DNA of 64,000 nucleotides from a virus. The stretch lies in the IMG/VR virus record IMGVR_UViG_3300010149_000010; one strand, given 5' to 3'. The notes under the pieces are model-generated. The model saw nothing but the letters and a program-made list of their open reading frames with translations. It did no database searches and was not told the DNA's origin. Below, in pieces: positions 9,165-64,000 of the stretch. The number at the start of each line of letters is the position of its first letter. Position 1 is the stretch's first letter. The position numbers and the translations under genes are program-made.

Positions 9165-12100
9165 TTAATCTCTCATCATTTTATTAATATAGGCATTACC
9201 TATCGGCCTTCTATTGTCGTTGACAGTCAGTGACGCCTGCCCTCCAGCCGATACAAAGTGCTTGCCCATAGTTTGAGCTGCAGAAAGGCTTGGAGCCTCT
9301 CCGTACATCTTAATTGAACGATTCAATGATACAGTACTCACTCCGCTATTGATAGGTCTTTCATAAAAATTATCAATCCCATTTATCTTACCTGGGCTTA
9401 CGTTTCCGTGCTCTCTACTAAAACTTTGTTGCAAAGCTCTATTGCTTAAACCTTGCCCCGCTTTTAAAGCTTCTTTAGAGATAGAATCGGAAAATTTACC
9501 TCCAGGTTCAAGCGAGCTGCTTGGCGAATTTGCTCCCACAGCATACGAAGCCAAAAGCGAACCTGCAATTACTCCAGCCAAACCCTTGCTCCTGCTAACG
9601 GTTTCGCTAAAAGCACTTCTAGCAGAATCTACTTTAGAAAAAATCGATTCTATTTCATCAAGCTCGCCAGTAATCACTCCACCTTCCATTGAAAAACCCT
9701 TGTTCATTAGTTGGAACAATTGCTGGCTGTTAAACCTAGAAGAACCTTCTAATTTTCTTCCAAGTGCCTTGTTAGATGTAAAATCGTTAAATCCATATTT
9801 TTTTACATTTCTAGCCATAACATCAAAAGAGTCAAATATTTCTTGGACATTTAAATTTACGTCTCCTAGAGCTTCTCTAAACTTTTTCGTTGCATTACCT
9901 TCTCCTAAGTTATGGAACTCAATTGACTTTGCATCTATTTTTAAGTTGCCTTCAGCATTTTCCAACAAAGTTCCTTTGAATATCTTGTCCTGGAAAAAGC
10001 TTTTTAGAGCATCGCCCTTACCCGTATTAAAAGATGTTTTTAAAGCACTTAGGTATTCCCTAGAAATGTTAGCAGCAATCGGAAGCTTCTTGCCTTTAAT
10101 TCCTAAAACTTCTTGAGCCACTGATATTAAAGCTGCTCCACTTTGAATTTTTTTAAATTGAGCTGCAAAATCTCCACTAGTATCATCTGCAGCAGACTGT
10201 GCAAGTCCCAGCATTCCTGCTTTAACTTGCACATCTAGACCACCAATTCCCTTTACTATTTGTTCTTTCTGGTACTCGTCTACAATGGACTGAGCAACTG
10301 TCATTTGTGAGGCTCCCATGCGCTTCCCTAGCTTCTCTACACCTTCCCCAAGCAGGCTCATGTTAGTTAGAAACTCTGCACCATAAGTGTACATTTTTTT
10401 TGCGTCGATCCCTTGGTTTTTCATTTTATTTTTTAAAGTCTTGTCTACATCAAAAAATACCTGATAAGGATCCGCGTCAAAGTCTCCAATGCCAAACCTT
10501 GCAAAATCCATGCGCCCAGAAAAGGCAGTCCTTTTACCTGTATTTACATCTTCTATTTGCATGCTCATGTCTATTTGAGGAAACCTTACAGTCCCTCCTC
10601 CATGCTCGCCTTTCTCTAAGTGCTTGTTAAGCATATCTTTATATATACCACCATAAGCACTAACTTGCTCTTCGTTTAGTTTTCCGCTTTCTTTCAACAA
10701 TCTTAGTTCAGCCAAATCGGCACCTGTTTTAACTTCTCTTCCCAAAACATCGTCTAGGATTTTTAAAGGCCTGCTTATACCAGGCGCTCTTGGCTGAGTT
10801 TTGTTTCCTTGAAAATCTGTATCTAAACCGCTTACTTCAGGAGCGTTGTTCATTATTTTTTCATCTATATCTTTTATAGTTATATCACCTTCATTTTCTA
10901 TTGATTCTTTTTGAGCATTTTCTATTAATTGTTTTTGAGCTTTGATTTCGTCTTCTTCTTGATTTAATCTTTCTATTTCTTCGAAAAGCGCTTTTCTGCG
11001 TTTTTGTTTACCCCTAAAAGGGTTTTTTTCCATTTCGTTAAGATCGCGCGTTGCTCTTTGTGAAATTTCTCTTTGTGAATAGAAATTTGACGCTCTATCT
11101 TTCACCTCTGACATTTTTACTTCTTCTCCTCTAGCTTCTCTTCTGATTACATCGTAGGCGTCTATCTTTGTAGCTTGAGGCGCAAGAGTGTAATTGCTGT
11201 TTTCATTAAGGACTTTTCTTACCCTTCCTCTGTTTCGAGAACTTATCCTCTCTAAGAACGGTTCGAGACTTTCTTCTGTAACCATGCCTTTTTTTCGTGC
11301 CGCTATAATTTCTTCAGAAACTGCTGGCCCCACTCCTTTTAGCTGCATCAATTCCTCTTTTGTTGCTAAGTTTAAATTCACAACACTCGCTCCACCACTT
11401 CTTACTTCTTTTATCCTCTGCGATATTTGCTCCCTATTCATATTGATTTTGCTCCGACCCTTGTTGTCAGGTTGAGCTAGTTCTTCTAAAGGGTTCAATT
11501 TACTCCCCGTTTGATTTCCATACTCATCAAGTAAGGGTACGTTTTTTCCAGAAAACTTTCTTGCTAAAAACTCGTTTTCAAAGCCTTCCAAGCTTCTCAA
11601 GTGAGTTTTATTGTCAGCATTAAAACCAAAAAAAGGTCCCATTTCGTTTATGAATCCAATAGCCTCTTTTTTATTTTCGAAATGCCTAAAAGAAGATGTC
11701 AACCTACCTTCATCTACACTCCTTCCATATGCTCCAACGTCTTCTATAGTTTCTGTGAACTCTCTTTCTAAACTACGTCTTATGTTTCCTTCAGAGACAT
11801 CACCGCCTCCAAGAACAGCCCTTCCGTAAACGTCTTTATTTTTATCAGCAGCGGTAATTTGTTCGTTAATTTTATGTATTTTATTATCAATAATTTTTGC
11901 TTCTTCATTAAGACCTTTAAGTTCCTCTGCCTTTTTGCTATATTCTGTAGTTTTTGTTGAACCAGCTTTATTAAACTTCTTAATTTGTTCAATTATCGGC
12001 TCGGCCTTTTTTTTTATTTTTGAAAACTGATCTTGCAAAAGAGCTACTTTACTATGACGTTTAGCTTGTGCTGCACCTACGTCTTCAGCAAGAAGGTTCA

Positions 12101-15100
12101 AATTACTTTCTTGAGGTAGGTTTCCTGAAAATACACCATGCCGCCTCTCTATAAACCCTCCAGGTTCTTCTAAAATCTTTGAAGCATCTCGCCTTTTGTT
12201 TAAAAGGGACTCCCTTTCAGCAACAAACTTTTCGTAACCTTCTTCACCTTTTATACTGGCTCTTTCTTGTTTGATTTCTTGCCTTTTGGCATAAACTTCT
12301 TGCCCCCTAGTATAAACAGCATCTCTTTCATCAAGTTTTTCTAAACCAGTAACCCCTTTTAATATTTCCGAAACTTTATCTTGGTTTAATGATTTTCTAA
12401 TCTTTTTAAGATGCTCTACATAATCCGGTGTAAACTCTTCTCCTTTTTCTACATTTCTTAAAAACTGTAGTGGTTTTAGCTCTTTTTCAAAATCGTATTG
12501 ATAAATACCCATGCTTGCAAAAATGTGTGAAAAACCTATGAGAGGATTTCTTTGTATCGTTCCAGAAATTCCTTCTTTTTTGCTTCGATGCATGCCAGTA
12601 AAAAAGGCTTCCAAAGTCTCTTCCATTATTTTGTTTGTTTCTTTTTTGGTAGAGACTTTACCTTGAGAAGCTAAATGTTTATTTATTGCTGATTCGTAGG
12701 TACCCATTCCATCTAGGAAAGCCTGTTGATCCATAAATGCAACATAGCCCATTTCTTTGTTTACCACTTCAGACAAAGAGTCTACAATTTGCTTTTGAAC
12801 ATTCAGATCATCGCTAAAGATTGTAGCTCCAACGCCTTTTTTTCCTAAAGTGAACCCACCTCCCATATAAGAGCCTGATCCTAAGATTTTACCACTTAGT
12901 GTACTCCTGATCGCTGTACCCGTTATTTTGCTTAATCTTTTTCTAACTTCAGTAAAGCCTGAAATTGATTTTTCGATTTCATCTTCATCAGTTCCAGCAT
13001 CCTTCAACGAAGATAAAGATGATAGCAAGTCTGTAATATTTCTTCCGTATTCAGCTTCTACTTTTATGACTTCATCACTCGACCTGATCTCATGGCCTAA
13101 AAACCCTTGAAAGGTATCTTCTCCTGGGAGAAATATTTCTTTTTTGCCTCCAGTAAATTCGTACAGCCTATCCAGCCCCTCTTTAGAGAGGCCCATTTTT
13201 TCTAAATCAAGTATGTTCCCTCCTTTCCTGGCAGACAGTTTTTCAACGACTTCTTTCTCTTTGCCTTGCCCAAGGTCTAAAAGTTCAGTTACCTCTTCTT
13301 CGGTTAGTTTACCAACATCGCTTAAACCTGATATCTGCTCTTTTATATTTGTTGCATCAAGCTTTCCAAGAGATTCTTGTGTCAGCTTCATTCCCATCAA
13401 GCCTCCAGCGCGACTTTCGAATCCTTCCATTCTGGTTATCATTGAAGAAACGTATCCCGTCGCTTCTTTTGAATCCATCCCCCAAAAGGATCTTAAAGAA
13501 GAATAAAGATAGTTCGCAAACCTTGGTTCAGCCTTAGCTACGCTTCTGCCCAGGTCTGTATGTGGAGTACCAACAGTTCCAAACGCAGCACCGATTACCA
13601 CACCTCTTTTTGCTGTCTCTTCGATTTTACTTAAATAGGGATCAACATCAACTACACCCGCGTCTTTTAAACCCGCAGCTATTTTTCTTTCAAAATATTC
13701 TAAGTTTAAACCAAACTTTTTATTGCTTGCTTGGTTTCTAGCATAAGACATTACCATTCCAAAATGATCAGCACTTATTCCTTCATCACCAGCCCTTTTT
13801 GCAATTGTTTGAAAGAACTTCCCTAAAGTTGAAGCGCTTTTTTGCTTTGCAGACACTTGGTCTACATTTGTTAGCGTGCTTTTAAAATCACCCAATTGGT
13901 TGTCATTTATTTCGGTAAGCAATTCATCTGCATTGTCTAAAGACCCCATACTAGTATTTAATGCTTTGTCCATTGCTGCTTCATCCAACCCGAGCATCTT
14001 CATACCTCCGTGTATCTGCGTACGCAGATACCCAGCAGACTTTCCCAATTGAGCTGTTGTGGTAAGCAAGGTGTTCTCTATCCTTCCCCCAAAACCGTCT
14101 TTATTGAAAAACACCTCTCCAATGTCACGAACACCCAACTCTTCCAGTTTCTTCAACATAGAAGATTCATTAATTGTAAGCGTTGTGTCTTTGGCTAAAG
14201 AAGAGAATAGTTTGCTATAATCAACGTCTTGCAACACTTGGCCTTTAAGATGGTAGCGGTCCCTTCCTGTTTCCATGCTTTTTTCAGAAAGCCCAAGCGT
14301 AAATCTTTTCATACCTTTGTGACGTTTGATGTGCACAATTCTGTCGTCTTGTTTTCCTAAAACAGCACGCCCTTCAGAATCTCCAAATTGTTTGAAAAAA
14401 TCATCAATATCGTAATCGTCACCATCAACGAGTGAACCTATAGTTAAAAACTTTCTGTTATTGTCTTTTGAAGCATTTAAAACTTCCGTCAATAACTTGC
14501 TCTGGTTAATACCTTCTTTGTTTATGGTTTTTGTATAACCTTTTTTAACCTGAATGGTGCCCCCCATATAACTCATCCCTTCACCAAGGCCTAATTGAGC
14601 AGCAGGGTTTTTTATTTTTTTTGCTCCGTGTTGTGCTTCTTCAAGTTTTTCAAAAATCATAATAGCGCCAAAGTTTACGCCTCTGATATTTTTAGATACT
14701 TCCTTATCACTGGTGATTCCAATCAATTCATTGCTTGCCCCAGATATTTTAATGTCTCCCTTTTTTCCAAAAGTAGCGTCTCTTTCAACACCTGCAAACC
14801 CTGCTGCTAATTCGGGTCTTCCGTAAACTTGACCAGCACGCGCTGTTTGAGGCACTAAACTGCGGTCCAGTCGCCCATACCTTTTCATCGCATTGAAGGC
14901 CGTTTTTGTTTTTGTTCCAGAATCATTCTCCAGTCGCTCAATATGACCTACTATCATTTCTCTTTTTAAATCAAATGGATCCTTAAATCTAGAAGTCAAA
15001 GTTTGCGAACCTGAAGTACCTCCATAAATTTCTGACTCATATTGAAGTATTTTTTTCGTTACTTGCTCCCTGTCTTTTTGTGCAAATTTTTCCAGTCCAG

Positions 15101-16352
15101 CAATTCTATGTATTGATGATTGAAAAGCTCGAGAATCTATAAGTGTAGACATCAAGTCTTTGTCGATTAAATTTATTTCTTTTCCACCATTAATTGTTCT
15201 GCTTGAATTCAATCCTTCAATCATTGTTCTTGGGGTCTCTATTGACATCGACCTAATATAGTCATTGTACTCATTTATATTTGTCACGCTAAAATTTTGA
15301 AAAGACTGTTTGTTTTCTTTTATCAATCCAAATAAATGATCTTCTAAGCTCATTGTAGCGTCTTTTAGCGCAGCTGCTGCCCCAGTCCCCTTTGGGGTTG
15401 CTAACTGATTCAAATCTAAACTAGGGAAAATTTTTGCAGCGTCTATTACACCCCCACTAGTAGTGTACCGTGTAGACATATTCTCCGTCCCTCTTATTAT
15501 TGTCATTCCAGATCTTGGGTCTTTAGCCAGGTCTAAAGCTACGTTTTGAAACCTCCCACTGCTATGCTCTACTCTCGCATAAGTAGACTTACCTTCACCT
15601 GGTCCATACTCTTCTAAAGATACTAATTGTATATTCTTTCCTGAAGCCATGGATTTAAGTTCCCCATATTTCTTCGTCGCTTTTCTACTCAGATCACTTG
15701 TCGATGCTGACTTCCACTCTACAGTGGAGGTTCCTTCTGTTGTGAAATCTTTGAAGGTGGTATTGAATTGGCCTTTTGTTTTCATCATTGAAGAGTGTCT
15801 TTTTTTGAATTCTTGCAACTTTGGACCGCTAGTACTTACACTACTTTTATAAAAATCAATAGCAGTCCGCATATCAACCTGTTCGATGTTTCCTGTTTCA
15901 ACACCTTGGTACAGTTTTTCTAACGATGCTTTTAGTGATCCCGAATCATCAATCATGCTTTCGCTAGCAGTATCAAAAAGTGCTGACAAAAAAGCCCTTG
16001 CTTCATTTGCGGAAGATGTTTCATTAAACATTCTTTCTAGGTTCTCACTACTTAAAATCTCCTCTTTAAAAGTTTTAAGTGCTACTTTCCTGCTTTCGTT
16101 TACAACACTCTTTAACCTTTCAGCATCTTTTCTAATTATGCTTCCTGCCCGACCTAACTCATTTTGCGAAGCAGAAGAGTTCTTTAAAGCCCCTAAGCTC
16201 TTCTTTACACCTGATGTTAAATTTACATTCTCGTTTAACAGGTAGGCTGTCCCAGCCACAGCAGCGGCTCCTATTACTGTGCGTCCAGTGTTTTTTATAT
16301 TCGACACTTCTTTATCTTTTTGCTGCTCATTTAATAGATTTATTAAAGACAT
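9165..16352 (-). CDS. 2395-aa tape-measure-locus protein, candidate virion (tail-delivered) two-barrel RNA polymerase with ComEA-like HhH insert
   Basis: GIGDFDADPY (10470-10484, D1957/D1959/D1961); QRNP (12543-12551); upstream GLGEGMSYM and KLFSSLAK; downstream KGIGGLD and AQEVLGIKGK; HhH VNLNLATKEELMQLKGVGPAVSEEIIAAR (about 11290-11382); lies between the tape measure and hub genes. Confidence 0.65.
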   Translation of the reverse strand: MSLINLLNEQQKDKEVSNIKNTGRTVIGAAAVAGTAYLLNENVNLTSGVKKSLGALKNSSASQNELGRAGSIIRKDAERLKSVVNESRKVALKTFKEEILSSENLERMFNETSSANEARAFLSALFDTASESMIDDSGSLKASLEKLYQGVETGNIEQVDMRTAIDFYKSSVSTSGPKLQEFKKRHSSMMKTKGQFNTTFKDFTTEGTSTVEWKSASTSDLSRKATKKYGELKSMASGKNIQLVSLEEYGPGEGKSTYARVEHSSGRFQNVALDLAKDPRSGMTIIRGTENMSTRYTTSGGVIDAAKIFPSLDLNQLATPKGTGAAAALKDATMSLEDHLFGLIKENKQSFQNFSVTNINEYNDYIRSMSIETPRTMIEGLNSSRTINGGKEINLIDKDLMSTLIDSRAFQSSIHRIAGLEKFAQKDREQVTKKILQYESEIYGGTSGSQTLTSRFKDPFDLKREMIVGHIERLENDSGTKTKTAFNAMKRYGRLDRSLVPQTARAGQVYGRPELAAGFAGVERDATFGKKGDIKISGASNELIGITSDKEVSKNIRGVNFGAIMIFEKLEEAQHGAKKIKNPAAQLGLGEGMSYMGGTIQVKKGYTKTINKEGINQSKLLTEVLNASKDNNRKFLTIGSLVDGDDYDIDDFFKQFGDSEGRAVLGKQDDRIVHIKRHKGMKRFTLGLSEKSMETGRDRYHLKGQVLQDVDYSKLFSSLAKDTTLTINESSMLKKLEELGVRDIGEVFFNKDGFGGRIENTLLTTTAQLGKSAGYLRTQIHGGMKMLGLDEAAMDKALNTSMGSLDNADELLTEINDNQLGDFKSTLTNVDQVSAKQKSASTLGKFFQTIAKRAGDEGISADHFGMVMSYARNQASNKKFGLNLEYFERKIAAGLKDAGVVDVDPYLSKIEETAKRGVVIGAAFGTVGTPHTDLGRSVAKAEPRFANYLYSSLRSFWGMDSKEATGYVSSMITRMEGFESRAGGLMGMKLTQESLGKLDATNIKEQISGLSDVGKLTEEEVTELLDLGQGKEKEVVEKLSARKGGNILDLEKMGLSKEGLDRLYEFTGGKKEIFLPGEDTFQGFLGHEIRSSDEVIKVEAEYGRNITDLLSSLSSLKDAGTDEDEIEKSISGFTEVRKRLSKITGTAIRSTLSGKILGSGSYMGGGFTLGKKGVGATIFSDDLNVQKQIVDSLSEVVNKEMGYVAFMDQQAFLDGMGTYESAINKHLASQGKVSTKKETNKIMEETLEAFFTGMHRSKKEGISGTIQRNPLIGFSHIFASMGIYQYDFEKELKPLQFLRNVEKGEEFTPDYVEHLKKIRKSLNQDKVSEILKGVTGLEKLDERDAVYTRGQEVYAKRQEIKQERASIKGEEGYEKFVAERESLLNKRRDASKILEEPGGFIERRHGVFSGNLPQESNLNLLAEDVGAAQAKRHSKVALLQDQFSKIKKKAEPIIEQIKKFNKAGSTKTTEYSKKAEELKGLNEEAKIIDNKIHKINEQITAADKNKDVYGRAVLGGGDVSEGNIRRSLEREFTETIEDVGAYGRSVDEGRLTSSFRHFENKKEAIGFINEMGPFFGFNADNKTHLRSLEGFENEFLARKFSGKNVPLLDEYGNQTGSKLNPLEELAQPDNKGRSKINMNREQISQRIKEVRSGGASVVNLNLATKEELMQLKGVGPAVSEEIIAARKKGMVTEESLEPFLERISSRNRGRVRKVLNENSNYTLAPQATKIDAYDVIRREARGEEVKMSEVKDRASNFYSQREISQRATRDLNEMEKNPFRGKQKRRKALFEEIERLNQEEDEIKAQKQLIENAQKESIENEGDITIKDIDEKIMNNAPEVSGLDTDFQGNKTQPRAPGISRPLKILDDVLGREVKTGADLAELRLLKESGKLNEEQVSAYGGIYKDMLNKHLEKGEHGGGTVRFPQIDMSMQIEDVNTGKRTAFSGRMDFARFGIGDFDADPYQVFFDVDKTLKNKMKNQGIDAKKMYTYGAEFLTNMSLLGEGVEKLGKRMGASQMTVAQSIVDEYQKEQIVKGIGGLDVQVKAGMLGLAQSAADDTSGDFAAQFKKIQSGAALISVAQEVLGIKGKKLPIAANISREYLSALKTSFNTGKGDALKSFFQDKIFKGTLLENAEGNLKIDAKSIEFHNLGEGNATKKFREALGDVNLNVQEIFDSFDVMARNVKKYGFNDFTSNKALGRKLEGSSRFNSQQLFQLMNKGFSMEGGVITGELDEIESIFSKVDSARSAFSETVSRSKGLAGVIAGSLLASYAVGANSPSSSLEPGGKFSDSISKEALKAGQGLSNRALQQSFSREHGNVSPGKINGIDNFYERPINSGVSTVSLNRSIKMYGEAPSLSAAQTMGKHFVSAGGQASLTVNDNRRPIGNAYINKMMRD

Positions 16353-22877: not shown

Positions 22878-22880
22878 AAT

Positions 22881-25487: not shown

Positions 25488-25490
25488 AAT

Positions 25491-25545
25491 ATTACCCCAG
25501 GCTAAAAAGTTATTACTATTTATAACATTTATAGCTTGGGGTAAT
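25491..25545 (-). promoter_or_regulatory. Long intergenic stem-loop occluding the RBS of the 562-aa gene; TATAAATA within it
   Basis: ATTACCCCAGGCTA...TAGCTTGGGGTAAT inverted repeat (14 bp, 1 mismatch, plus inner GTTAT/ATAAC) ending 3 nt before the ATG at 25487. Confidence 0.6.
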
Positions 25546-25562
25546 CTACAATTAAGTTTAAC

Positions 25563-56954: not shown

Positions 56955-57097
56955 GGGGGTATTTATATTAATGGTGTTTTTGCACTCTTAGAGTTGCGAG
57001 CCCACCCCCGTTTGAGCATGGGTTAAGCTTCCCCCCTACACATCAGTGATAAATCACACACCTACATCACTGATTTTTGCCCCAGAAGGACATTATT

Positions 57098-57568
57098 ATG
57101 GATACTTGGCAAATCATCGCCATCATCTTCACAACCCTTCACCTTGCTTTCTTTTCACAATACTTTATCTTGGGATGCTCTATCTTAGAGCATATTGAGA
57201 ATAAGAAAATTGAAGCAGGTAACCGAGCATACGCTGCTTGGAAGCTTGGGTTTATCGCCCCTCGCAACCTTGCTTATATAAATGCAATCGCCTCTCAGCC
57301 TTTCTACCTCTTTGAGGTGGCAAAGTGGGAGAACCTTCAGGTCTATCATCATGTTGATGGAACCTGGTATGACATTGATTCTGGTAACTTAAGGGGTTAC
57401 GTCAAGATCAATAGGGAAGGCCAGATTGGTTTCAGTAAAAATCGGCATCTCGTAGAGAGTAAGTGTCGTATCATGCTCAGAGTTAGTGAGGGTGGGCTTT
57501 GCTATATCTTGGATCCTTCACTCAGAAAGAGTGAGAGAAACAGGTGGCATGAGCGCTGGTCCATCTAA
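57098..57568 (+). CDS. Hypothetical early membrane protein (156 aa)
   Basis: RBS GAAGGA before ATG 57098; N-terminal TM WQIIAIIFTTLHLAFFSQYFILG. Confidence 0.65.
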   Translation: MDTWQIIAIIFTTLHLAFFSQYFILGCSILEHIENKKIEAGNRAYAAWKLGFIAPRNLAYINAIASQPFYLFEVAKWENLQVYHHVDGTWYDIDSGNLRGYVKINREGQIGFSKNRHLVESKCRIMLRVSEGGLCYILDPSLRKSERNRWHERWSI

Positions 57569-57599
57569 ATTTTATCCTAGAAAAGTGCTATGTTTTCGG

Positions 57600-57622
57600 A
57601 AGCCCCCTTCGGGGCTTTTTTT
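57600..57622 (+). terminator. Intrinsic terminator
   Basis: AAGCCCC-CTTC-GGGGCTT followed by a T run. Confidence 0.85.
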
Positions 57623-57660
57623 AATTTACCCTACTTCAATGGATGCTTAAGCACATCCAT
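57617..57660 (+). promoter_or_regulatory. Repeated AATTT-N10-AATGG-hairpin element, copy 1 (candidate phage promoter)
   Basis: TTTTTTAATTT ACCCTACTTC A ATGGATG-CTTAAGCA-CATCCAT. Confidence 0.55.
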
Positions 57661-57732
57661 CTCTCATGTTGAGGGTAAAGCGCACCAGTGCAATGCTTCT
57701 ACGCAATTCTTCGTTGTCGGAAGGACATCATC

Positions 57733-59022
57733 ATGCGTAACTTATCTATCCTTGCCTTTATTGGCTTCCTATTCTTATTCACTGGCTGCGGCGTTGTGCG
57801 CAATGTGGCCTCAACCCTCAACCACGAGATCTGCGAAAAGAGCTACAACAAGTTTGTATGCCCAACCGTATCTGAACCAGCACATACACCCCTCTGCTAT
57901 GGGGTAAGTGTACGCACCACTGCCGGAGTCGATAACTTTGCCCATACCGATCAGGGGCCATTTTGCAAGAAACTCCAAAATGAGGCTACGCGTAAAGCCT
58001 TCCAATCAAAGCCAGGGACAACCTGCGCCATCAAAGGCAAGGGTAAATTTCAGAAGGTTGTATGTGCCGGCTTCCATCACGCTGGCGGCATCTTACTCAT
58101 CCTCTTGACGCTTCTTTGGGGGCGTGGTTTACGCGATCTTATGGTCGCTAGTGTAGAGAATGAAGATACCCGTCGCCCCTTTGATGGAATGTGGGAGGGG
58201 TGCAGAGTGATGATTATCGCCTGCATTGGGGCTGTGGTTTTACTAGCGTTAACCACAAACGCTTATAGCCAGCCTTGTGTCAACAAGGCTTATACAATAA
58301 GTCAACCGTCTGACATCTTGGAGTGCGAGATGACCCTCTCCACTCCAGAGAGCAACATGAGGTATACTTTAACGGCCCTAGATTTGGCTCAAGATAAAGT
58401 CTGCAATATACACCATCCGAACATGGGCATTGTAGCTTGCTACGACCTCTATGACGAGGCCCGCGCCCTCTTTAAGGCGAGGGCAGCCTTGTTGATGCTG
58501 AAAGAAGCGACACGAATCGTTGATATCAATGAAAGCGTCACGACCCCCACGCCATGTGGGGCAAATAAGCACTTGTGTGCTTCAGTGGGATGGGATAAGG
58601 CAAGTGGAATCGGCCTATTCTTTTCCTTCATCATTTCTTTACTCCTCTCTCGTCGCAAGACGAGAGAGGAGTGGTTCGGTTTTGAAACACTCCTGTACAG
58701 GGAGACGAGGAACGCCGTTTGGGCAATCGAGGACGAGCTATACAAAGCTCGTTGGATCGAGCGTGTGATTGAGGCTGCAATCACTCTCGCAGCCTTCTCT
58801 TTTGGGGGGCTCGTATTAGGGATTACATCCACCTTCTTGGCCCAGAAGAGATACGGGTGGGCGAGCATCTTCTGTGTGTTCGTATCAGTTCTCCTCTGGG
58901 GCTCTGCCCTGGAATGGATCCTTTTTGTACTCAAAGCATTAACGTGCTTCCTCTCAAACACTGAGGAGGGGTTCCGTTTCGTTAGGTGGGCGCTCCATCA
59001 GCGATGGAAACGTCAACTGTAA
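57733..59022 (+). CDS. Cys-rich multi-pass membrane lipoprotein (429 aa)
   Basis: RBS GAAGGA before ATG 57733; MRNLSILAFIGFLFLFTG-C lipobox; two Cys-rich regions each followed by TM segments. Confidence 0.65.
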   Translation: MRNLSILAFIGFLFLFTGCGVVRNVASTLNHEICEKSYNKFVCPTVSEPAHTPLCYGVSVRTTAGVDNFAHTDQGPFCKKLQNEATRKAFQSKPGTTCAIKGKGKFQKVVCAGFHHAGGILLILLTLLWGRGLRDLMVASVENEDTRRPFDGMWEGCRVMIIACIGAVVLLALTTNAYSQPCVNKAYTISQPSDILECEMTLSTPESNMRYTLTALDLAQDKVCNIHHPNMGIVACYDLYDEARALFKARAALLMLKEATRIVDINESVTTPTPCGANKHLCASVGWDKASGIGLFFSFIISLLLSRRKTREEWFGFETLLYRETRNAVWAIEDELYKARWIERVIEAAITLAAFSFGGLVLGITSTFLAQKRYGWASIFCVFVSVLLWGSALEWILFVLKALTCFLSNTEEGFRFVRWALHQRWKRQL

Positions 59023-59056
59023 GTAAAACAATCAAAAAAGTATTTATGTTTTTTGG

Positions 59057-59080
59057 AGCTCCCTTTTGGGAGCTTTTTTT
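59057..59080 (+). terminator. Intrinsic terminator
   Basis: AGCTCCC-TTTT-GGGAGCT followed by T6. Confidence 0.85.
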
Positions 59081-59115
59081 AATTTACTCCTTTTAATGGG
59101 GGTTTAACATCCTCC
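59075..59115 (+). promoter_or_regulatory. Repeated AATTT-N9-AATGG-hairpin element, copy 2
   Basis: TTTTTTAATTT ACTCCTTTT AAT GGGGG-TTTAACAT-CCTCC. Confidence 0.5.
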
Positions 59116-59175
59116 TTTGTAATTCTGCATAAAAAAAAGTGTAACCTAAATGTAGCCAAATACAGGAGTATTACT

Positions 59176-59814
59176 ATGGCTTATAAAATCTTTAACAACA
59201 CAGGGCGAGCCCTGTGCAGCGAAAGAGAGAATGGTTTTATTGTTCTCTTCTCAGAAAAAAGAGATTTCAAAGACTACCAATTCAACGACCTCGACGGAAA
59301 AGCGATAGTAGAGGCGATCTGGAGTCCAAGCGGTTTTGTTGACGCTCACTATTTCTTCTTCAGCAAAGTCTGGTTTTCTGCAGACAAGGTGAGATCATTC
59401 AACGATCTGTGCATCGTAAAGCGTGATCCAGCGTACCCAGAGCGCTTCATCGAAACACCTGTCAAGGAACTTAAAGAGAGCGTATTCCAGGCAATTCTTT
59501 CATGTTCATTTGACGGTGTTTCTGATGACGAGCTTCAAGACCTTGCTAATCTTCGATCCACATTTGAAGATGATCTTCGTCGCGCAAGAGACGAGGTAGA
59601 GAGATTCGCGCATTCGTGGAGATGCAGGGATGGGAGCGTTCTCCCAGCACACGATCAAAAGGTCATTATCCAGCTCCGTGAAGAAGAAAAGAAGAGGGTC
59701 GACCCATCACTGTTGCTCCATTCCTATCACCACCTTATGATGGAGTTCAGAAGAGAGCTCCATCGCAGAGGACTAATTCTGAGAATGGGGAACATCGTTC
59801 CTTTTCAATATTGA
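59176..59814 (+). CDS. Hypothetical early protein (212 aa)
   Basis: RBS CAGGAG; bounded by terminators on both sides. Confidence 0.7.
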   Translation: MAYKIFNNTGRALCSERENGFIVLFSEKRDFKDYQFNDLDGKAIVEAIWSPSGFVDAHYFFFSKVWFSADKVRSFNDLCIVKRDPAYPERFIETPVKELKESVFQAILSCSFDGVSDDELQDLANLRSTFEDDLRRARDEVERFAHSWRCRDGSVLPAHDQKVIIQLREEEKKRVDPSLLLHSYHHLMMEFRRELHRRGLILRMGNIVPFQY

Positions 59815-59853
59815 TCGCTAAAAGAGCCAACTGAAGATTAAGAAACACCTAAA

Positions 59854-59891
59854 GCCCTGGAGTGCACCACCGCACTTCGGGGCAGTTTTTT
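59854..59891 (+). terminator. Intrinsic terminator
   Basis: GCCCTGGAGTGC-ACCACC-GCACTTCGGGGC (12-bp stem, 2 G-U) then AG and T6. Confidence 0.8.
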
Positions 59892-59931
59892 AATTTGTTT
59901 CCTTTAATGGAGAGATTATAGCAACTCTCCA
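59886..59931 (+). promoter_or_regulatory. Repeated AATTT-N9-AATGG-hairpin element, copy 3
   Basis: TTTTTTAATTT GTTTCCTTT AA TGGAGAG-ATTATAGCAA-CTCTCCA. Confidence 0.55.
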
Positions 59932-60002
59932 GCCTTCAGAATAGAAGGTGCCATTAGGCTTCGTGGTATACACACAACCCCCTACAGAAAGGGACTGAGA
60001 CA

Positions 60003-63000
60003 ATGCGTAAAGCAATTTTCTCACTTTTCCTTGGCCTGCTGTGGGCAGCTAGCTGTTATTCAGTCTATGTTGCTCCTCTAGCATTGCCTGCGTCCGCCGT
60101 GGATGCAGCGCCAATTGTTCATCCTTCAGCAGAGGTCGCAAAACCTCTTGCTACCAACCGCACTGACAACGCAACTGCTGAGATTGACCATCTTCGCAGT
60201 ACTACTATTAACAGTGGAAGCTCTACCCCTAGTCAAGGTACCTTCCCCATTAATAACCCTAACGCATTACGTCCTCGTCGTAGAGGTATTATGCGTCGCA
60301 GAAAGCTGAAGTCACGAAAGGGCAACCGCCTTGTTAGTGATGCCTTTATCAAATTTGTCTTTGGTTACCACCGTGTAACTTACATGAGTGGCAATTGGCT
60401 GTGTTACGAAGAGACGCCTTACACAGAGGCAGACTTCAAAGTGAGTAAACCAGCTAAAGCTCGTAAGAAAGCGAAGAAATCCTGGCGTCAGCTAAAGGGT
60501 GAGGCAACACGTCTTTACCAGAAGGCTGCAAAGCTTCGTAAGCGCAATCCAGAATATCCGCCTGCAATAGCCTGTGCGGTGTTTGCCAAAGCACAAAAAC
60601 TTCATCATAAAGCCAATGATATGAAGAAGGCATTAAAAGAGGCTCAACCGACAGCACGTCAACAGCGTTCATTCCGACGCTCAGTGTTGAGAGCGGAAGC
60701 CAAAACTTGCGAGCAGTTTATCAAAGCTGAGTTAGTGAGCAATGTGGACCAAGCTAAAGAGCTGATTCAAAAGGTCCTCAGTGGTGACACTAATGGAGCT
60801 GCATTGAGACTATTACAAAAATCTCAATTAGGGCGCATTTACGTAAAATATGGTATCCTCCAGGCGCCGATGAAAGAGGAAGAAGTCGAGAGACCTACGA
60901 ACCCAGTAGTCAGACACATCAAAGTAGCAGAAACCCCTGCAAGGGTATGGACCCCATTGATGCGTGCAGCGATTATAGTTATTGCACCACTCATGCTAGG
61001 TATGGATGCGGATGTAGGTACCGTCGCAGAAGTCACTTATGCTAGTGCTTCTGGTGGTATTTTAATGATGACCCTGAAGAACGTCTTGAATACTCCAGCC
61101 CGTAAGCGTGAAGCAGCGCAAGACGGGTACAATCGTTACGCAGAGCAGTCGATCAAAGCTGCAAAGGGTAGTGAATGGGATGTTTTCTCCCTCATGCGAT
61201 TCAGTCGCAGTGGTAAAGGTGCGCCGATCACCAACGGCAAAGCCCACGATACTGACAAGCAGAAGGGTCGTGCTGTCCGTATTATTCAAGATAGCATCGG
61301 CGGGGCGTACTGCCCAAAGGTAAAGTCATTCGCCAGGATGCTTGGAATTGAACTCGGCGTGGACAACTGTCTCCGTTATGAAGTTGACGACCAAATGGAT
61401 GAGGTACTAAAAGCTGACGTCGTCGAGATCTTAATGGCAGCCAGCTTTGTTATTCTTTGTGACGGCTTTGCTGTTCACAAGAGCATTGCTCGCCCCTTCA
61501 TTGAGTACGGGGAGACTATGTTCGGCAATGCTGTAGCTGTGCGCTCTTACTTCCGCAGTCTAATCACCACACCAGAGCTCTACACGGTCAACCAGGACTT
61601 ACCTATCTTCTTGGGTGACCTCGATGAGCTTATGGGATGGGCGGAGAACGATGGTGGCGCTGTGCATACCAATCGCCTGAGCGTGAGCATGCAGTTCCGA
61701 GGGATCGCGAAAGTGCTTGAGGCGAAGTACCGCATCTTGTCCAAGGGCATCACAACTTCTGCTAAGGTTATTGCTGACATCACTGATGACGTCGACAAGC
61801 CTGTCTTCGTCAACTATGAAGGCGATGAGGAAGGCCACATCAAGGGTGAGGTTCGCCTAAGCAAAAAGGTTGACGAGTGCATCCGTGTTGCAGTAGAGGA
61901 AGAATTCAACGCTCTGCATGCTGTTAACACGGCGACTAAAGAGCAGCTTTGCTTAGTTGCAGGAATTGGCCCTAAGACCGCTGAAAAGATCGTTGAAGCT
62001 CGTAATGCTGCAGGTGGGGCATTCGCTGACATGGATGCGTTCTACAACGTGTCAAGGCGCCTTGATCCCAGCAACCCGGACGCGCTTCGCGTCTTGCGTT
62101 GGTCTTTTGGCCACAAGGGCCGTGTTTACTCAGTGGGCCTATTCCTTGACAAGGGTTGTCTCAAGGGAGAAGACAAGAATGCTTGGGACTGGAACAAGCT
62201 CAACTTCTTCGGCGTCAACGGCCAAAATGTCGACTTCTGGTCTATCGCTATCGACCAGATTGGCGGCAAGATCAGCTTGGGCTGGCAGGTAGTCCAGTTA
62301 TTAGACGCTGACTTCATCGGCGGTTTGTTCAAGAACACTGATGGTAGTCTTGGAATCGCGGCCCAAAAGTTAGCGCGCCAGATCGACAATGCAATCGAGC
62401 AGGAACACCCTCTTTGTAAGCATCTCCTTGATGCAATTGAAGACAAGGGCGGTGACATTGAAAACTTGATGTCAGCCGTAAAAGCTATTTCCGTGCTTCA
62501 GGGCCTCGGGAAGACCGCCTCTAAGCGCATCAGCAATGGTCTCGGTGCGAAGGCAGGATCTTACTATGTTCAGATGATCGACATGGGTGGCGACTGGGTA
62601 ATTATCAAAACACCCAAGGCCAAGGATGGCAAGGGTTACAAGCGATGGGCTACTTGCTTCTTCGGTCGTACACCGAACCAGGGGCACGAGACCGTCCGCG
62701 CACCTATGGCGCTATCACCAACTTATGTCGGTGGATTCTTGAGGGATTATCTTGATAATGGCTTTGACGCTGTAGAGAAGCACGGCAAACAAGCCGTAAA
62801 ATTCGTTATGGGTCTCAATGATGCTTGTGGTCATGATACCGATGTAGTACGTCTTCGCTGCCGTGCGATCTTGACGATGCTCCCAGCTGTAATTGATGGA
62901 ATTGCTTTAGTCGACTCAACTCTACAACAAAAGGTATGCGGCGACAATGATGGCGACCGTAACATGATCAGCTTCGACAAGATGCTCGTTGCAATCGCCA

Positions 63001-64000
63001 AGCATATCACCCGTAAGCATCCTACTACATTCCCTGCGCGCGAGCAGTCAAAGAAGTTCGTTCTCAATACCTTTGATGATGTGGTCTTGGAGAAGGGCGG
63101 CTGGCTTCGTAGCTTTAACAAGTACATGAAAACAGGTGACTCTTCGGAGTTGCTTCTCATTTCCAAGTTCCTTTCTGCCCCCGGTGGGACTCCAGGGCAA
63201 GGGAACGTGGGTGGTGTGACGCAATGTGCTGCTGCACCAATGCTTTTCTGTGACTGGCACTGGGTCAAGAAGGATGGCAAAGATGTCTACGAGCCAGTCA
63301 ATCCAGCCGCTCGCAAGTTGGTCAATTATCTTTACTTGTGCCAGCAGATCGCCATTGACCGCCAAAAGTATTACTATTTGGCGCCTTCGCTGCTGCATTG
63401 GTTCTTTGCTGACCTTGAGGTTGGTGACGCAGTCATCAAAGAGTTGAAGGCAGGCGGCCATGCGGACACTAATTGGCTTCACAGTCACTACCCAATTCAG
63501 GGTGCTGCTGATATGTCGTTCGAAGAATACCAAGCCGCTTGGAAAAATGGTACATTGCCTGTGATCTCAGAGATCATCCCAGGCATGGGTAAAGGCGCTA
63601 TGGGCGGTCAATCTGTCGCTCCGATGATGTACTCCAACGGCCCGCTTTACGTGTGGACCGCGTGGCAGGTTAACGGTATTAACCTCGGCTTTGATTACTT
63701 CGATAAAGACAGGATGGTTGAGCTTTCTGGGTTCTTTGACGAAGAGATTGCTCAGACTGCTGACTGGCAGGGTATCATTGACCACCTCAATCTCAGTGTC
63801 TCAGCTGAACAGCTCGAGGAAAGCTGGGTGTGGCCTGGCTACATCACGGGTTGGGTCAACACCAACTTCCGTGAGTCTCAAGATCTCTCTCCAGAGACCT
63901 TCCAGTCTGCTCGCATCCATGCCAACAATGTGTGGCTCGAGAAAATGGAGCAGGCAGGTATCGATGCTGACCCAGCCGTAACTCTCGTTGAGAGTGGGTT
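60003..64000 (+). CDS. Single-chain two-barrel RNA polymerase of the YonO / cellular-RdRP-like type (>1332 aa, runs off window end) with hydrophobic N-terminus and HhH insert
   Basis: Hand translation from ATG 60003 gives an uninterrupted frame with ordered motifs NDGG (61647), QFRG (about 61692), SKG (61740), KGCLK, SLGWQVVQLL, GRTP (62664-62675), GDNDGD (D981-D985, 62943-62957), GNVGGVT, QQIAIDRQK (63342-63368). Confidence 0.85.
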   Translation, partial: MRKAIFSLFLGLLWAASCYSVYVAPLALPASAVDAAPIVHPSAEVAKPLATNRTDNATAEIDHLRSTTINSGSSTPSQGTFPINNPNALRPRRRGIMRRRKLKSRKGNRLVSDAFIKFVFGYHRVTYMSGNWLCYEETPYTEADFKVSKPAKARKKAKKSWRQLKGEATRLYQKAAKLRKRNPEYPPAIACAVFAKAQKLHHKANDMKKALKEAQPTARQQRSFRRSVLRAEAKTCEQFIKAELVSNVDQAKELIQKVLSGDTNGAALRLLQKSQLGRIYVKYGILQAPMKEEEVERPTNPVVRHIKVAETPARVWTPLMRAAIIVIAPLMLGMDADVGTVAEVTYASASGGILMMTLKNVLNTPARKREAAQDGYNRYAEQSIKAAKGSEWDVFSLMRFSRSGKGAPITNGKAHDTDKQKGRAVRIIQDSIGGAYCPKVKSFARMLGIELGVDNCLRYEVDDQMDEVLKADVVEILMAASFVILCDGFAVHKSIARPFIEYGETMFGNAVAVRSYFRSLITTPELYTVNQDLPIFLGDLDELMGWAENDGGAVHTNRLSVSMQFRGIAKVLEAKYRILSKGITTSAKVIADITDDVDKPVFVNYEGDEEGHIKGEVRLSKKVDECIRVAVEEEFNALHAVNTATKEQLCLVAGIGPKTAEKIVEARNAAGGAFADMDAFYNVSRRLDPSNPDALRVLRWSFGHKGRVYSVGLFLDKGCLKGEDKNAWDWNKLNFFGVNGQNVDFWSIAIDQIGGKISLGWQVVQLLDADFIGGLFKNTDGSLGIAAQKLARQIDNAIEQEHPLCKHLLDAIEDKGGDIENLMSAVKAISVLQGLGKTASKRISNGLGAKAGSYYVQMIDMGGDWVIIKTPKAKDGKGYKRWATCFFGRTPNQGHETVRAPMALSPTYVGGFLRDYLDNGFDAVEKHGKQAVKFVMGLNDACGHDTDVVRLRCRAILTMLPAVIDGIALVDSTLQQKVCGDNDGDRNMISFDKMLVAIAKHITRKHPTTFPAREQSKKFVLNTFDDVVLEKGGWLRSFNKYMKTGDSSELLLISKFLSAPGGTPGQGNVGGVTQCAAAPMLFCDWHWVKKDGKDVYEPVNPAARKLVNYLYLCQQIAIDRQKYYYLAPSLLHWFFADLEVGDAVIKELKAGGHADTNWLHSHYPIQGAADMSFEEYQAAWKNGTLPVISEIIPGMGKGAMGGQSVAPMMYSNGPLYVWTAWQVNGINLGFDYFDKDRMVELSGFFDEEIAQTADWQGIIDHLNLSVSAEQLEESWVWPGYITGWVNTNFRESQDLSPETFQSARIHANNVWLEKMEQAGIDADPAVTLVESG

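What the first reader, a model, noticed from the sequence alone, without database searches (positions are those of the whole stretch)
60003..64000. YonO/RdRP-like RNA polymerase missed by the ORF track
The frame from ATG 60003 is open to the window end. It shows the ordered motif set of the cellular RdRP/YonO family: DG, QxR, KG, second Lys, LxxQxxQLL, RxP, DxDGD, (I/V)G, AIDxxK. The catalytic loop is DNDGD, with Asn where F/L/Y is usual. DNA-dependent activity is inferred from the phage context.
Basis: partly seen in the sequence, partly recalled or inferred. Interest (0 to 1): 0.85.

Follow-up and report, generated by a model that had tools for sequence, protein, structure and literature searches.

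The report
Giant single-chain phage RNA polymerase
A 2,174-residue gene of an uncultured marine contractile-tailed phage very probably encodes a single-chain RNA polymerase of the same two-barrel kind as cellular RNA polymerases, from a family that standard annotation libraries miss, with a DNA-binding insert, a membrane-anchor-like start and its own conserved promoter-like signal.

Summary
The frame from ATG 60003 is open to the window end, and identical sister contigs complete it to 2,174 aa. All nine motifs are present in the stated order and are invariant or nearly so across about 35 relatives of 20-90% identity.

An AlphaFold model of residues 470-1320 matches only single-chain two-barrel RNA polymerases at the top: QDE-1 (Z 11.3), maize RDR2 (10.1), Thermus phage P74 gp62 (9.8) and P23-45 gp96 (8.3). 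Both barrels are recovered.

Pfam, PHROGs and PDB sequence searches see only a helix-hairpin-helix insert. A profile-profile comparison with the family of Bacillus phage 0305phi8-36 gp99 is colinear but weak (E 1e-3).

New here:
- an (HhH)2 DNA-binding module inserted in the first barrel;
- a hydrophobic N-terminal anchor in most relatives;
- a GC-rich island around the gene, seen in three lineages;
- a terminator plus promoter-like cassette before the gene and its neighbours, conserved in four phage lineages and confined to this block in a complete 161.8-kb genome.

Most likely this is an early-expressed, non-virion DNA-dependent RNA polymerase; a virion-packaged role is not excluded. The scan reached the same reading before on another genome (e1-3505229).

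The parts
60003..64000 (+). 5' 61% of the RNA polymerase gene (aa 1-1332 of 2,174). It continues to a stop 2,527 nt beyond the window (L001:10001-16525).
   Evidence: Open frame. Full-length identical protein P0002 on three contigs.
60012..60074 (+). N-terminal hydrophobic segment (aa 4-24) that looks like a signal peptide or membrane anchor. A low-complexity, strongly basic region follows, to about aa 300.
   Evidence: Hydropathy scan: about 20 of 32 family members have a hydrophobic N-terminal helix despite no sequence identity. P0017's apparent lack is explained by an upstream ATG in L006.
61578..62252 (+). First double-psi beta-barrel (DPBB-B, beta-subunit-like; aa 526-750). It carries DG, QxR, K581-G582 and K721-G722.
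   Evidence: AlphaFold model, pLDDT mostly 75-90. DPBB proteins (expansin, phage baseplate barrel) align to model 53-281. QDE-1, RDR2 and gp62 alignments span it.
61908..62060 (+). ComEA-like (HhH)2 non-specific DNA-binding module (aa 636-686), inserted inside DPBB-B between the two conserved Lys.
   Evidence: Pfam HHH_3 E 4e-9. ComEA, Tex and TEFM structures align to model 162-233, Z 6-7. Present in some subfamilies and absent in others.
62547..63029 (+). Second double-psi beta-barrel (DPBB-A, beta-prime-like; aa 849-1009). It carries K850, RTPNQ and the catalytic loop GDNDGD (nt 62940-62957).
   Evidence: pLDDT about 80-92. Isolated DPBB domains and the beta-prime/Rpb1 barrels of RNA polymerases I-III, archaeal and viral enzymes align to model 380-540. 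D981, D983, G984 and D985 are invariant.
63303..63368 (+). Bridge-helix-like long helix (aa 1101-1122) ending in the invariant AIDxQK. A poorly modelled stretch follows where a trigger loop would lie.
   Evidence: Model helix 632-653. I1118, D1119 and K1122 are invariant. It aligns with the IDxAK helix of the gp99 family.
59854..59930 (+). Cassette 73-149 nt upstream of the RNA polymerase ATG: intrinsic terminator hairpin, T-run, AATTTG, 6 nt, CTTTAATGG, then a second stem-loop (59909-59930).
   Evidence: Terminator scan. Pattern found 3 times in the window against 0.01 expected. Alignment of 14 copies.
59055..59115 (+). Second copy of the cassette, upstream of ORF 59176-59814.
57598..57660 (+). 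Third copy of the cassette, upstream of ORF 57733-59022.
9165..16352 (-). Possibly related: a 2,395-aa tail-locus protein with an invariant FPQI...GRMDFxRFxIGDFDAD motif and an HhH motif. It is a candidate second (virion) polymerase and is not established.
   Evidence: Motif invariant in 17 homologues; two distant ones read GDFDGD and GDMDGD. The fold model is mostly long helices with no polymerase match, and profile comparisons are not significant.

Best explanation
The gene encodes a 2,174-aa single-chain, two-barrel, Mg-dependent RNA polymerase of a phage. The active site would lie between a beta-like barrel that supplies the conserved Lys/Arg (K581, K721, R566) and a beta-prime-like barrel that supplies D981, D983 and D985. 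This is shown at the level of sequence conservation and predicted fold.

The following steps are inferred:
- It copies DNA, helped by the (HhH)2 duplex-binding insert.
- It is made early. Its gene sits a few genes into the arm that diverges from the structural module, inside a small GC-rich block whose genes each carry the same terminator plus promoter-like cassette.
- It then transcribes the rest of the roughly 160-kb genome, which in a complete relative encodes no sigma factor and no T7-type polymerase.
- Its N-terminal hydrophobic helix would tether it to the membrane.

The cassette-bearing pre-early genes would be read by the host polymerase or by a virion-delivered enzyme.
For: Fold:
- Model of aa 470-1320: pLDDT 70, pTM 0.65.
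- VIA-align top five are all single-chain two-barrel RNA polymerases: QDE-1 Z 11.3 (390 aligned), RDR2 10.1 (404), P74 gp62 9.8 (398), P23-45 gp96 8.3 and 7.9.
- Foldseek top hits are QDE-1 (E 5.8e-4), phi14:2 gp66, RDR2 and gp62/gp64, then beta-prime.
- BFVD: phage proteins named RNA-dependent RNA polymerase, plus entries whose length or source phage match gp99, phi14:2 gp66 and a P23-45 polymerase.

Sequence:
- Invariant ordered motifs, identical in kind and order to the PF05183-positive gp99 family.
- hhalign E 9.7e-4 over 200 colinear columns.

DNA template: HHH_3 insert.

Early, non-virion role:
- The position is conserved in relatives of 26-37% identity: SNase giant and a 250-aa gene on one strand, then a strand switch, small ORFs and the polymerase.
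- It is the same position as 0305phi8-36 gp99. The record flags about 30 mass-spectrometry virion proteins there, but not gp99.
- The portal is closest to that phage's.
- The cassette occurs 3 times in the window (0.01 expected), 10 times in L007, 2 in L008 and 4 in L009.
- The complete genome G001 has only 4 copies, all on one strand at 12.4-22.0 kb, bracketing the polymerase gene.
- G001 has no Sigma70_r2 match. A search for a T7-type RNA_pol also found nothing, but its control rang in no genome, so that search is uninformative.
Against: - No sequence library recognises the catalytic core.
- Structural scores are moderate (TM 0.29; Z 11 on an 851-residue model), from a shallow 15-sequence alignment.
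- No activity, template or timing data exist.
- Known non-virion single-chain enzymes are much smaller (about 590-1,220 aa). Giant size with large flanking regions is typical of virion-packaged polymerases (phi14:2 gp66 2,180 aa; N4; P23-45 gp96).
- The N-terminal hydrophobic helix, and the thrombospondin-type repeats in some relatives, would also suit an ejected envelope-associated protein.
- The C-terminal 850 aa are unexplained.
Confidence: 0.62

Rival explanations
1. It is the same two-barrel RNA polymerase, but virion-packaged. It would be ejected with the DNA, anchor in the envelope by its N-terminal helix, and itself read the cassette promoters of the pre-early block, including its own gene. 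This would resemble N4, crAss-like and P23-45 virion polymerases.
For: - Size of 2,174 aa, with about 470 aa N-terminal and about 850 aa C-terminal regions of unknown function, as in phi14:2 gp66 and as noted for virion polymerase fusions.
- A conserved hydrophobic N-terminus, and TSP_3 repeats in relatives.
- The cassette is highly conserved between phages whose polymerases are only 32-37% identical, and it lacks sigma-70 geometry. This suits a phage-encoded reader that is present at time zero.
Against: - The gene lies outside the structural and tail module, on the opposite strand among small ORFs.
- Its positional counterpart gp99 is not among the mass-spectrometry virion proteins of 0305phi8-36.
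- A polymerase that must be packaged late would be driven by the same signal as pre-early genes.
Confidence: 0.25
2. It is a two-barrel enzyme with another main activity: an RNA-dependent RNA polymerase, a primer-making or replication enzyme, or a PolD-like DNA polymerase.
For: The closest solved folds (QDE-1, RDR2) act on RNA or ssDNA templates. The two-barrel fold also includes archaeal PolD.
Against: - The context is a dsDNA tailed phage.
- The protein carries a duplex-DNA-binding HhH insert.
- PolD is not among the structural matches.
- Characterised phage members of this lineage (YonO, gp66, gp64, gp96) are DNA-dependent transcriptases.
Confidence: 0.07
3. It is not a polymerase. It would be a structural or ejection protein that retains a decayed two-barrel scaffold.
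For: There are no hits in any sequence library, there are large uncharacterised regions, and the N-terminus is membrane-like.
Against: The catalytic triad, the Gly of DxDGD, both Lys, RxP and AIDxQK are invariant across 27-35 sequences down to about 20% identity. This is the signature of a maintained active site.
Confidence: 0.04

Closest known systems
Bacillus phage 0305phi8-36 gp99 (ABS83659.1, 1,218 aa), a YonO-like single-chain two-barrel RNA polymerase within Pfam RdRP PF05183
   Same: - The ordered motif set is the same: DG, QxR, KG, K, WQ..L, RxP, DxDGD, (I/V)G, IDxxK.
- Position 2 of the loop is small or polar (DTDGD against DNDGD).
- The genome position is the same, a few genes into the arm diverging from the terminase-portal-capsid module.
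- The two phages share related portals, 35% identity.
- The profile alignment is colinear, E 9.7e-4.
   Different: - No HMM-level similarity: the A2 profile finds only an HhH motif elsewhere in that genome, and there is no PF05183 hit.
- The window protein is 950 aa longer.
- It has an HhH insert in the first barrel, an N-terminal hydrophobic helix and an 850-aa C-terminal region.
Neurospora QDE-1 and plant RDR2 (eukaryotic RNA-silencing polymerases)
   Same: These are the best structural matches: Z 11.3 and 10.1, about 390-400 residues aligned across both barrels, the connector and the bridge helix. Both have DxDGD with Gly at position 4.
   Different: About 10-12% identity. They are eukaryotic, act in RNA interference on ssDNA or RNA templates, and have no HhH insert or membrane anchor.
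Thermus phage P23-45/P74-26 non-virion polymerase gp64/gp62 and the tape-measure-fused virion polymerase gp96
   Same: Single-chain two-barrel phage transcriptases, Z 9.8 and 8.3. They offer a precedent for a pre-early gene set that includes the non-virion polymerase gene.
   Different: gp64/gp62 are about 590-616 aa. There is no detectable sequence similarity, and the promoters and host are different.
crAss-like phage phi14:2 gp66 virion RNA polymerase (2,180 aa)
   Same: Nearly identical length. Two barrels in one chain, flanked by large regions of unknown fold. Structural match over 437 residues (Z 5.2; Foldseek rank 2).
   Different: gp66 has DFDID, with Ile/Val at position 4, where this protein has DNDGD. 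gp66 is encoded in the structural block and shown to be packaged. This phage is contractile-tailed, not crAss-like.
Bacillus prophage SPbeta YonO
   Same: A single-chain DNA-dependent RNA polymerase of the same lineage that transcribes phage late genes. Some YonO-class proteins carry DNDGD.
   Different: About 100 kDa against about 240 kDa.

Membership tests
Two-barrel (DPBB) RNA polymerase superfamily | Two double-psi beta-barrel domains forming one cleft | tested here: met
   In the AlphaFold model, isolated DPBB domains align to residues 380-540 (Z about 5.4) and 53-281 (Z about 5.7-6.3). Whole-model best matches are QDE-1, RDR2, gp62 and gp96 at Z 8-11. This is a prediction, not an experimental structure.
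Two-barrel (DPBB) RNA polymerase superfamily | DxDxD Mg-binding triad in the beta-prime-like barrel | tested here: met
   GDNDGD at aa 980-985. D981, D983, G984 and D985 are invariant in 27 sequences. It lies in a loop before strand 518-521 of the confidently modelled barrel.
Two-barrel (DPBB) RNA polymerase superfamily | Two conserved basic residues in the beta-like barrel | tested here: met
   K581 and K721 are invariant, and R566 as well, within model barrel 57-281. Their geometry at the active site was not inspected, as no coordinates were available.
Two-barrel (DPBB) RNA polymerase superfamily | Bridge helix and trigger loop after the catalytic barrel | tested here: inconclusive
   A long helix (model 632-653) ends in the invariant AIDxQK and aligns with IDxAK of the gp99 family. 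The following 90 residues have pLDDT below 50.
Two-barrel (DPBB) RNA polymerase superfamily | Template-dependent RNA synthesis | not testable with these tools
   Needs purified protein.
Cellular RdRP / YonO / gp99 family as defined by Pfam PF05183 | Significant match to the PF05183 profile | tested here: not met
   No hit at E up to 10 for P0001, or up to 1 for P0002 and three relatives. There is none in the six-frame search of the complete relative G001. gp99 itself scores E 1.2e-18.
Cellular RdRP / YonO / gp99 family as defined by Pfam PF05183 | Ordered motif series DG, QxR, KG, K, (W)Q..L, RxP, DxDGD, (I/V)G, IDxxK | tested here: met
   All are present in the same order in both families. 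Profile-profile E 9.7e-4, probability 22%, 200 columns.
crAss-like virion RNA polymerase (gp66 family) | DFDxD with Ile/Val at position 4; gene in the structural block; packaged in virions | tested here: not met
   The motif is DNDGD with invariant Gly. The gene lies on the opposite arm. The phage has a sheath and a 0305phi8-36-like portal. Packaging is untestable here.
Non-virion (early-expressed) phage RNA polymerase | Expressed early from the incoming genome; absent from particles; transcribes middle and late genes | not testable with these tools
   Only indirect evidence: conserved position, the cassette regulon, and the gp99 analogy.

The most novel reading that the evidence does not exclude
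These roughly 160-kb marine contractile-tailed phages may run a self-contained two-polymerase programme. A tail-locus giant protein with an invariant GDFDAD/GDFDGD loop (window 9165-16352) would be ejected and read the four or so hairpin-flanked cassette promoters of a GC-rich pre-early block. That block encodes a membrane-anchored 2,174-aa two-barrel polymerase. Tethered at the entry site, this enzyme would both transcribe and help draw in the remaining genome.
Probability: 0.15. Interest if true: 0.85.

Novelty: new variant of a known kind. Interest (0 to 1): 0.62.

Why it matters
Single-chain two-barrel RNA polymerases are the simplest relatives of the cellular transcription enzyme. They are also central to ideas on the origin of eukaryotic RNA-silencing polymerases. 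Only a handful of phage lineages have been studied: YonO, phi14:2 gp66 and P23-45 gp64/gp96.

This family extends that set to abundant uncultured marine phages (Tara Oceans and IMG/VR contigs). Pfam, PHROGs and PDB sequence searches do not detect it, so such genomes are annotated as having no polymerase.

The family combines features not reported together:
- a duplex-DNA-binding (HhH)2 module inserted in a catalytic barrel;
- a membrane-anchor-like N-terminus;
- a 2,000-aa format outside the structural module.

It also comes with a sharply defined, conserved candidate promoter. That makes promoter recognition by a minimal two-barrel enzyme directly testable in vitro.

Tried and rejected
**Sequence searches that found nothing beyond the HhH motif**
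- Pfam at E 10.
- PHROGs.
- tblastn against 50,697 phage records.
- PDB by phmmer and by family profile.
- The A2 profile on the 0305phi8-36 genome.
- hhalign of A2 against the single gp99 sequence: probability 0.1.

**Second polymerase (window 9165-16352)**
- A 1,200-residue model (pLDDT 65, pTM 0.37) is mostly long helices.
- VIA-align and Foldseek returned only coiled-coil or SMC-like matches.
- hhalign against the polymerase family placed GDFDAD on GDNDGD, but at probability 0.1.
- A PDB profile search found nothing, and phage tblastn found nothing.
- The region around the motif was modelled below pLDDT 50, so this neither supports nor excludes a polymerase.

**Other readings considered**
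- crAss-like phage was my first guess, from the giant ORFs. I rejected it: the portal is 0305phi8-36-like and a tail sheath is present.
- Chimeric assembly or recent transfer as the cause of the GC jump is rejected. Three contigs share the junctions, and the island recurs in relatives of 34-37% identity.
- The cassette as a sigma-70 promoter is not supported. The spacing is wrong, and sigma-70-like sites are not enriched: 10 found against 12.1 expected.

**Searches that led nowhere**
- A late-promoter motif: k-mer enrichment and TATAAAAG-type words gave nothing convincing.
- Hammerhead-like strings seen by eye in L006 intergenic repeats: no Rfam match at E 0.1.

- The protein-atlas search.
- The look-up of sequencing runs.
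- As a result, the C-terminal 850 aa went unexamined beyond HMM searches, and no expression data were obtained.


Full report
**1. The observation**

The frame starting at ATG 60003 runs without a stop to the last complete codon of the window, 1,332 codons. A protein search returned a 2,174-aa protein (P0002) identical over residues 480-1332. Its first 1,332 residues equal the window translation exactly.

P0002 is encoded on three independent contigs. Two could be read: L001 (ENA, 90.7 kb) and L002 (Logan, 11.1 kb). Both have the same neighbours as the window. The gene is therefore real and intact, and it ends 2,527 nt past the window.

**2. Conservation**

Fifteen full-length relatives (26-84% identity in the core) and a further set found by an exhaustive profile search give about 35 family members of 1,480-2,330 aa.

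In a 27-sequence core alignment reaching 18-26% identity, the invariant columns are almost exactly the motif residues: G551, Q564, R566, K581, G582, K721, Q762, P891, D981, D983, G984, D985, E1014, G1070, Q1115, I1118, D1119 and K1122.

Position 2 of the catalytic loop is N, S, A or D in all members. Asn is not unprecedented: the supplement of Chaban et al. 2024 (PMC10770324) lists YonO-class phage proteins with DNDGD.

**3. What sequence libraries see**

They see nothing but a helix-hairpin-helix motif (Pfam HHH_3, aa 641-685, E 4e-9). There is no Pfam RdRP hit even at E 10, no PHROG, no tblastn match in 50,697 phage records, and no PDB match by sequence or profile.

**4. Fold**

An AlphaFold2 model of aa 470-1320, built on the 15-sequence alignment, has mean pLDDT 70 and pTM 0.65. 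Both barrel regions are mostly at 75-92.

An exhaustive structural alignment against 48,161 PDB representatives puts five single-chain two-barrel RNA polymerases on top:

| Match | Z | Residues aligned |
|---|---|---|
| QDE-1 | 11.3 | 390 |
| Maize RDR2 | 10.1 | 404 |
| Thermus phage P74 gp62 | 9.8 | 398 |
| P23-45 gp96, crystal 1 | 8.3 | 303 |
| P23-45 gp96, crystal 2 | 7.9 | 299 |

These are followed by HhH domains on model 162-233. Next come the large subunits of RNA polymerases I, II, III and IV, archaeal, ASFV and vaccinia enzymes, and phiKZ/AR9 non-virion subunits. Isolated DPBB domains align to model 380-540, and other DPBB proteins to 53-281. phi14:2 gp66 aligns over 437 residues (Z 5.2).

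Foldseek agrees: QDE-1 E 5.8e-4, then gp66, RDR2 and gp62/gp64, then bacterial beta-prime.

In the viral predicted-structure library the best matches are uncharacterised or 'RNA dependent RNA polymerase' phage proteins. Further down are a 1,218-aa entry matching gp99 in length, a phi14:2 structural protein and a P23-45 protein.

The scores are moderate, and the model rests on a shallow alignment.

**5. Link to a known family by sequence**

Iyer et al. 2021 (PMC7824862) name gp99 of Bacillus phage 0305phi8-36 as a YonO-like single-chain enzyme. gp99 hits Pfam RdRP at E 1.2e-18.

Its family (17 sequences, all PF05183-positive) has the same ordered invariant motifs: DG, QxR, KG, K, WQ..L, RxP, DTDGD, IG and IDxAK.

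A profile-profile comparison with the 27-sequence alignment gives E 9.7e-4 (probability 22%) over 200 colinear columns. It aligns GDNDGD with ADTDGD, NVG with IGE, and AIDxQK with IDxAK. I treat this as weak but independent support. The new family lies in the same lineage but outside the Pfam family.

**6. Anatomy beyond the core**

- **(HhH)2 insert.** A ComEA-like (HhH)2 module sits inside the first barrel, between the two conserved Lys. It is present in several subfamilies and absent in others. (HhH)2 modules bind duplex DNA without sequence specificity (established knowledge). This is the main new argument for a DNA template.
- **N-terminal helix.** About 20 of 32 members start with a hydrophobic helix that looks like a signal peptide or anchor, despite no sequence similarity. 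One apparent exception (P0017) regains it if an upstream ATG in L006 is used. Some subfamilies place the positive charges after the helix, which would leave the bulk of the protein in the cytoplasm.
- **Flanking regions.** A basic low-complexity stretch follows the helix, and some relatives carry thrombospondin-type-3 repeats. The C-terminal 850 aa are conserved but unexplained.

**7. Genome context**

The window is a tailed phage:
- large terminase 47708-49915, portal 38779-40266 and major capsid 33240-34586;
- tail sheath 26460-29384 and a set of paralogues 22413-26435, probably tail-tube proteins;
- three giant proteins: 1,465 aa, 2,395 aa, and more than 3,053 aa with amidase/endolysin similarity.

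All of these lie on the minus strand. The portal is closest to Bacillus phage 0305phi8-36 and Acinetobacter phage ME3 (32-36% identity). The phage is not crAss-like.

The polymerase gene is the sixth ORF of the arm that diverges from the structural module at about 55.9-56.2 kb. The same arrangement recurs in relatives of 26-37% identity: an SNase-domain giant and a gene of about 250 aa on one strand, then a strand switch, a few small ORFs and the polymerase.

This matches the position of gp99 in 0305phi8-36. That record flags about 30 virion proteins identified by mass spectrometry, but not gp99.

**8. A conserved cassette**

Each of the three genes ending with the polymerase is preceded by the same elements. 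First comes a strong intrinsic terminator hairpin and a T-run. Then come AATTT(A/G), 6-8 nt, and CTT(T/C)AATGG. A second stem-loop whose stem co-varies between copies closes the cassette.

The core pattern occurs 3 times in the window against 0.01 expected. It occurs 10 times in L007, 2 in L008 and 4 in L009, always on the coding strand in intergenic regions and always including the spacer before the polymerase gene.

In the complete 161,781-bp relative with direct terminal repeats (G001), there are only four copies. All lie on one strand between 12.4 and 22.0 kb, bracketing the polymerase gene at 13.0-19.5 kb.

The spacing does not fit a sigma-70 promoter, and sigma-70-like sites are not enriched in the region. 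G001 has no Sigma70_r2 domain, no T7-type polymerase and no PF05183 match. The T7-type search is uninformative, because its control rang in no genome.

The block is also a compositional island. GC is 46-53% against 35-41% in the structural arm, and the polymerase gene has GC3 0.54 against 0.27-0.33 in the terminase, portal and giant structural genes. The same island is seen in L006 and L007. This is unexplained.

**9. Mechanism**

Shown (by prediction and conservation): the protein has a maintained two-barrel polymerase active site.

Inferred:
- DNA-dependent RNA synthesis.
- Early expression from the cassette as part of a tiny pre-early regulon.
- Transcription of the remaining genome.

This programme resembles T7 (host polymerase first) or P23-45 (virion polymerase first).

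The giant size and hydrophobic N-terminus also fit a packaged, ejected enzyme. I give about 0.62 to the early non-virion reading, 0.25 to the virion reading, and about 0.9 in total to the protein being an active two-barrel RNA polymerase.

**10. A possible second polymerase**

The 2,395-aa tail-locus protein has an invariant FPQI...GRMDFxRFxIGDFDAD block whose spacing resembles beta-prime RxP...DFDGD. Two distant homologues read GDFDGD and GDMDGD. It co-occurs with the polymerase in G001; P0171 and P0007 also share a 161,753-bp longest-contig length, but whether that is one contig was not checked.

Its model is mostly long helices with no polymerase match, and profile comparisons are not significant. 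It remains a lead only.

**11. Earlier scan notes**

A follow-up on another genome (e1-3505229) reached the same reading for a 2,175-aa homologue, with gp99 as the closest known relative. First-stage notes on this genome proposed the tail-locus virion polymerase and a two-polymerase system (e1-5684254, e1-5684261). I tested these claims myself, as described above.

**12. Verdict**

This is a new, unannotated variant of a known kind of enzyme. Its distinctive additions are the HhH insert, the N-terminal anchor, the giant format outside the structural module, and a conserved promoter-like cassette.

Noticed in passing
window 9165-16352 (-): A 2,395-aa protein in the tail/tape-measure zone with an HhH motif (aa 1656-1689) and an invariant FPQI...GRMDFxRFxIGDFDAD block. 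Distant homologues read GDFDGD and GDMDGD. This resembles the beta-prime catalytic barrel signature, but the fold model and profile comparisons gave no polymerase match.
   Followed up: partly
window 57598-57660, 59055-59115, 59854-59930 (+); L007 (10 copies); L008 (2); L009 (4): A conserved cassette of terminator hairpin, T-run, AATTT(A/G), N6-8, CTTYAATGG and a co-varying stem-loop precedes each gene of the GC-rich early block. A complete 161.8-kb relative has only 4 copies, all around the polymerase gene.
   Followed up: yes
window ~57000-64000 and beyond (L001 7000-18000); L006 1-14000; L007 2000-16000: A GC-rich compositional island (46-62% GC against 33-45% in the flanks; GC3 0.54 against about 0.3) covers the polymerase gene and its neighbours. 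It is conserved in three divergent phage lineages and is unexplained.
   Followed up: partly
window 3-9161 (-): An open-ended giant ORF (more than 3,053 aa) with an N-acetylmuramoyl-L-alanine amidase domain (aa 1171-1283) and similarity to an endolysin PHROG (aa 2193-2400). It is probably an ejected or baseplate cell-wall-degrading protein.
   Followed up: no
window 51020-55105 (-): A 1,361-aa protein with a staphylococcal-nuclease domain (aa 1055-1163), conserved next to the strand switch in distant relatives. Its role is unknown.
   Followed up: no
window 22413-26435 (-), repeats at 23927-24250: Four adjacent paralogous genes downstream of the sheath gene, probably tail-tube paralogues although the PHROG is labelled head protein. 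One of them contains tandem D-x-D-N-D-G-like (thrombospondin-type) repeats.
   Followed up: no
L001 17885-20240 and 25033-25189 (3.9-6.2 kb and 11.0-11.2 kb beyond the window end): A 2.3-kb stretch with no credible ORF that contains one weak tRNA match (19865-19931). Two good tRNA genes lie further on. An earlier scan note proposes ribozymes there, but Rfam at gathering threshold found only tRNAs.
   Followed up: partly
L006 535-768, 1920-2075, 2610-2732: In a GC-rich relative the AATTT/AATGG cassette is absent. The early intergenic regions instead share a different repeated element (CCTAGG..CGAAAC..hairpin..GTC..hairpin..CTGATGAG) that looks hammerhead-like by eye. No Rfam family matched at E 0.1.
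   Followed up: partly
L006 19426-20647: A relative carries adenylosuccinate synthase and a Lyase_1 (adenylosuccinate-lyase-like) gene downstream of the early block. These are auxiliary purine-metabolism genes.
   Followed up: no
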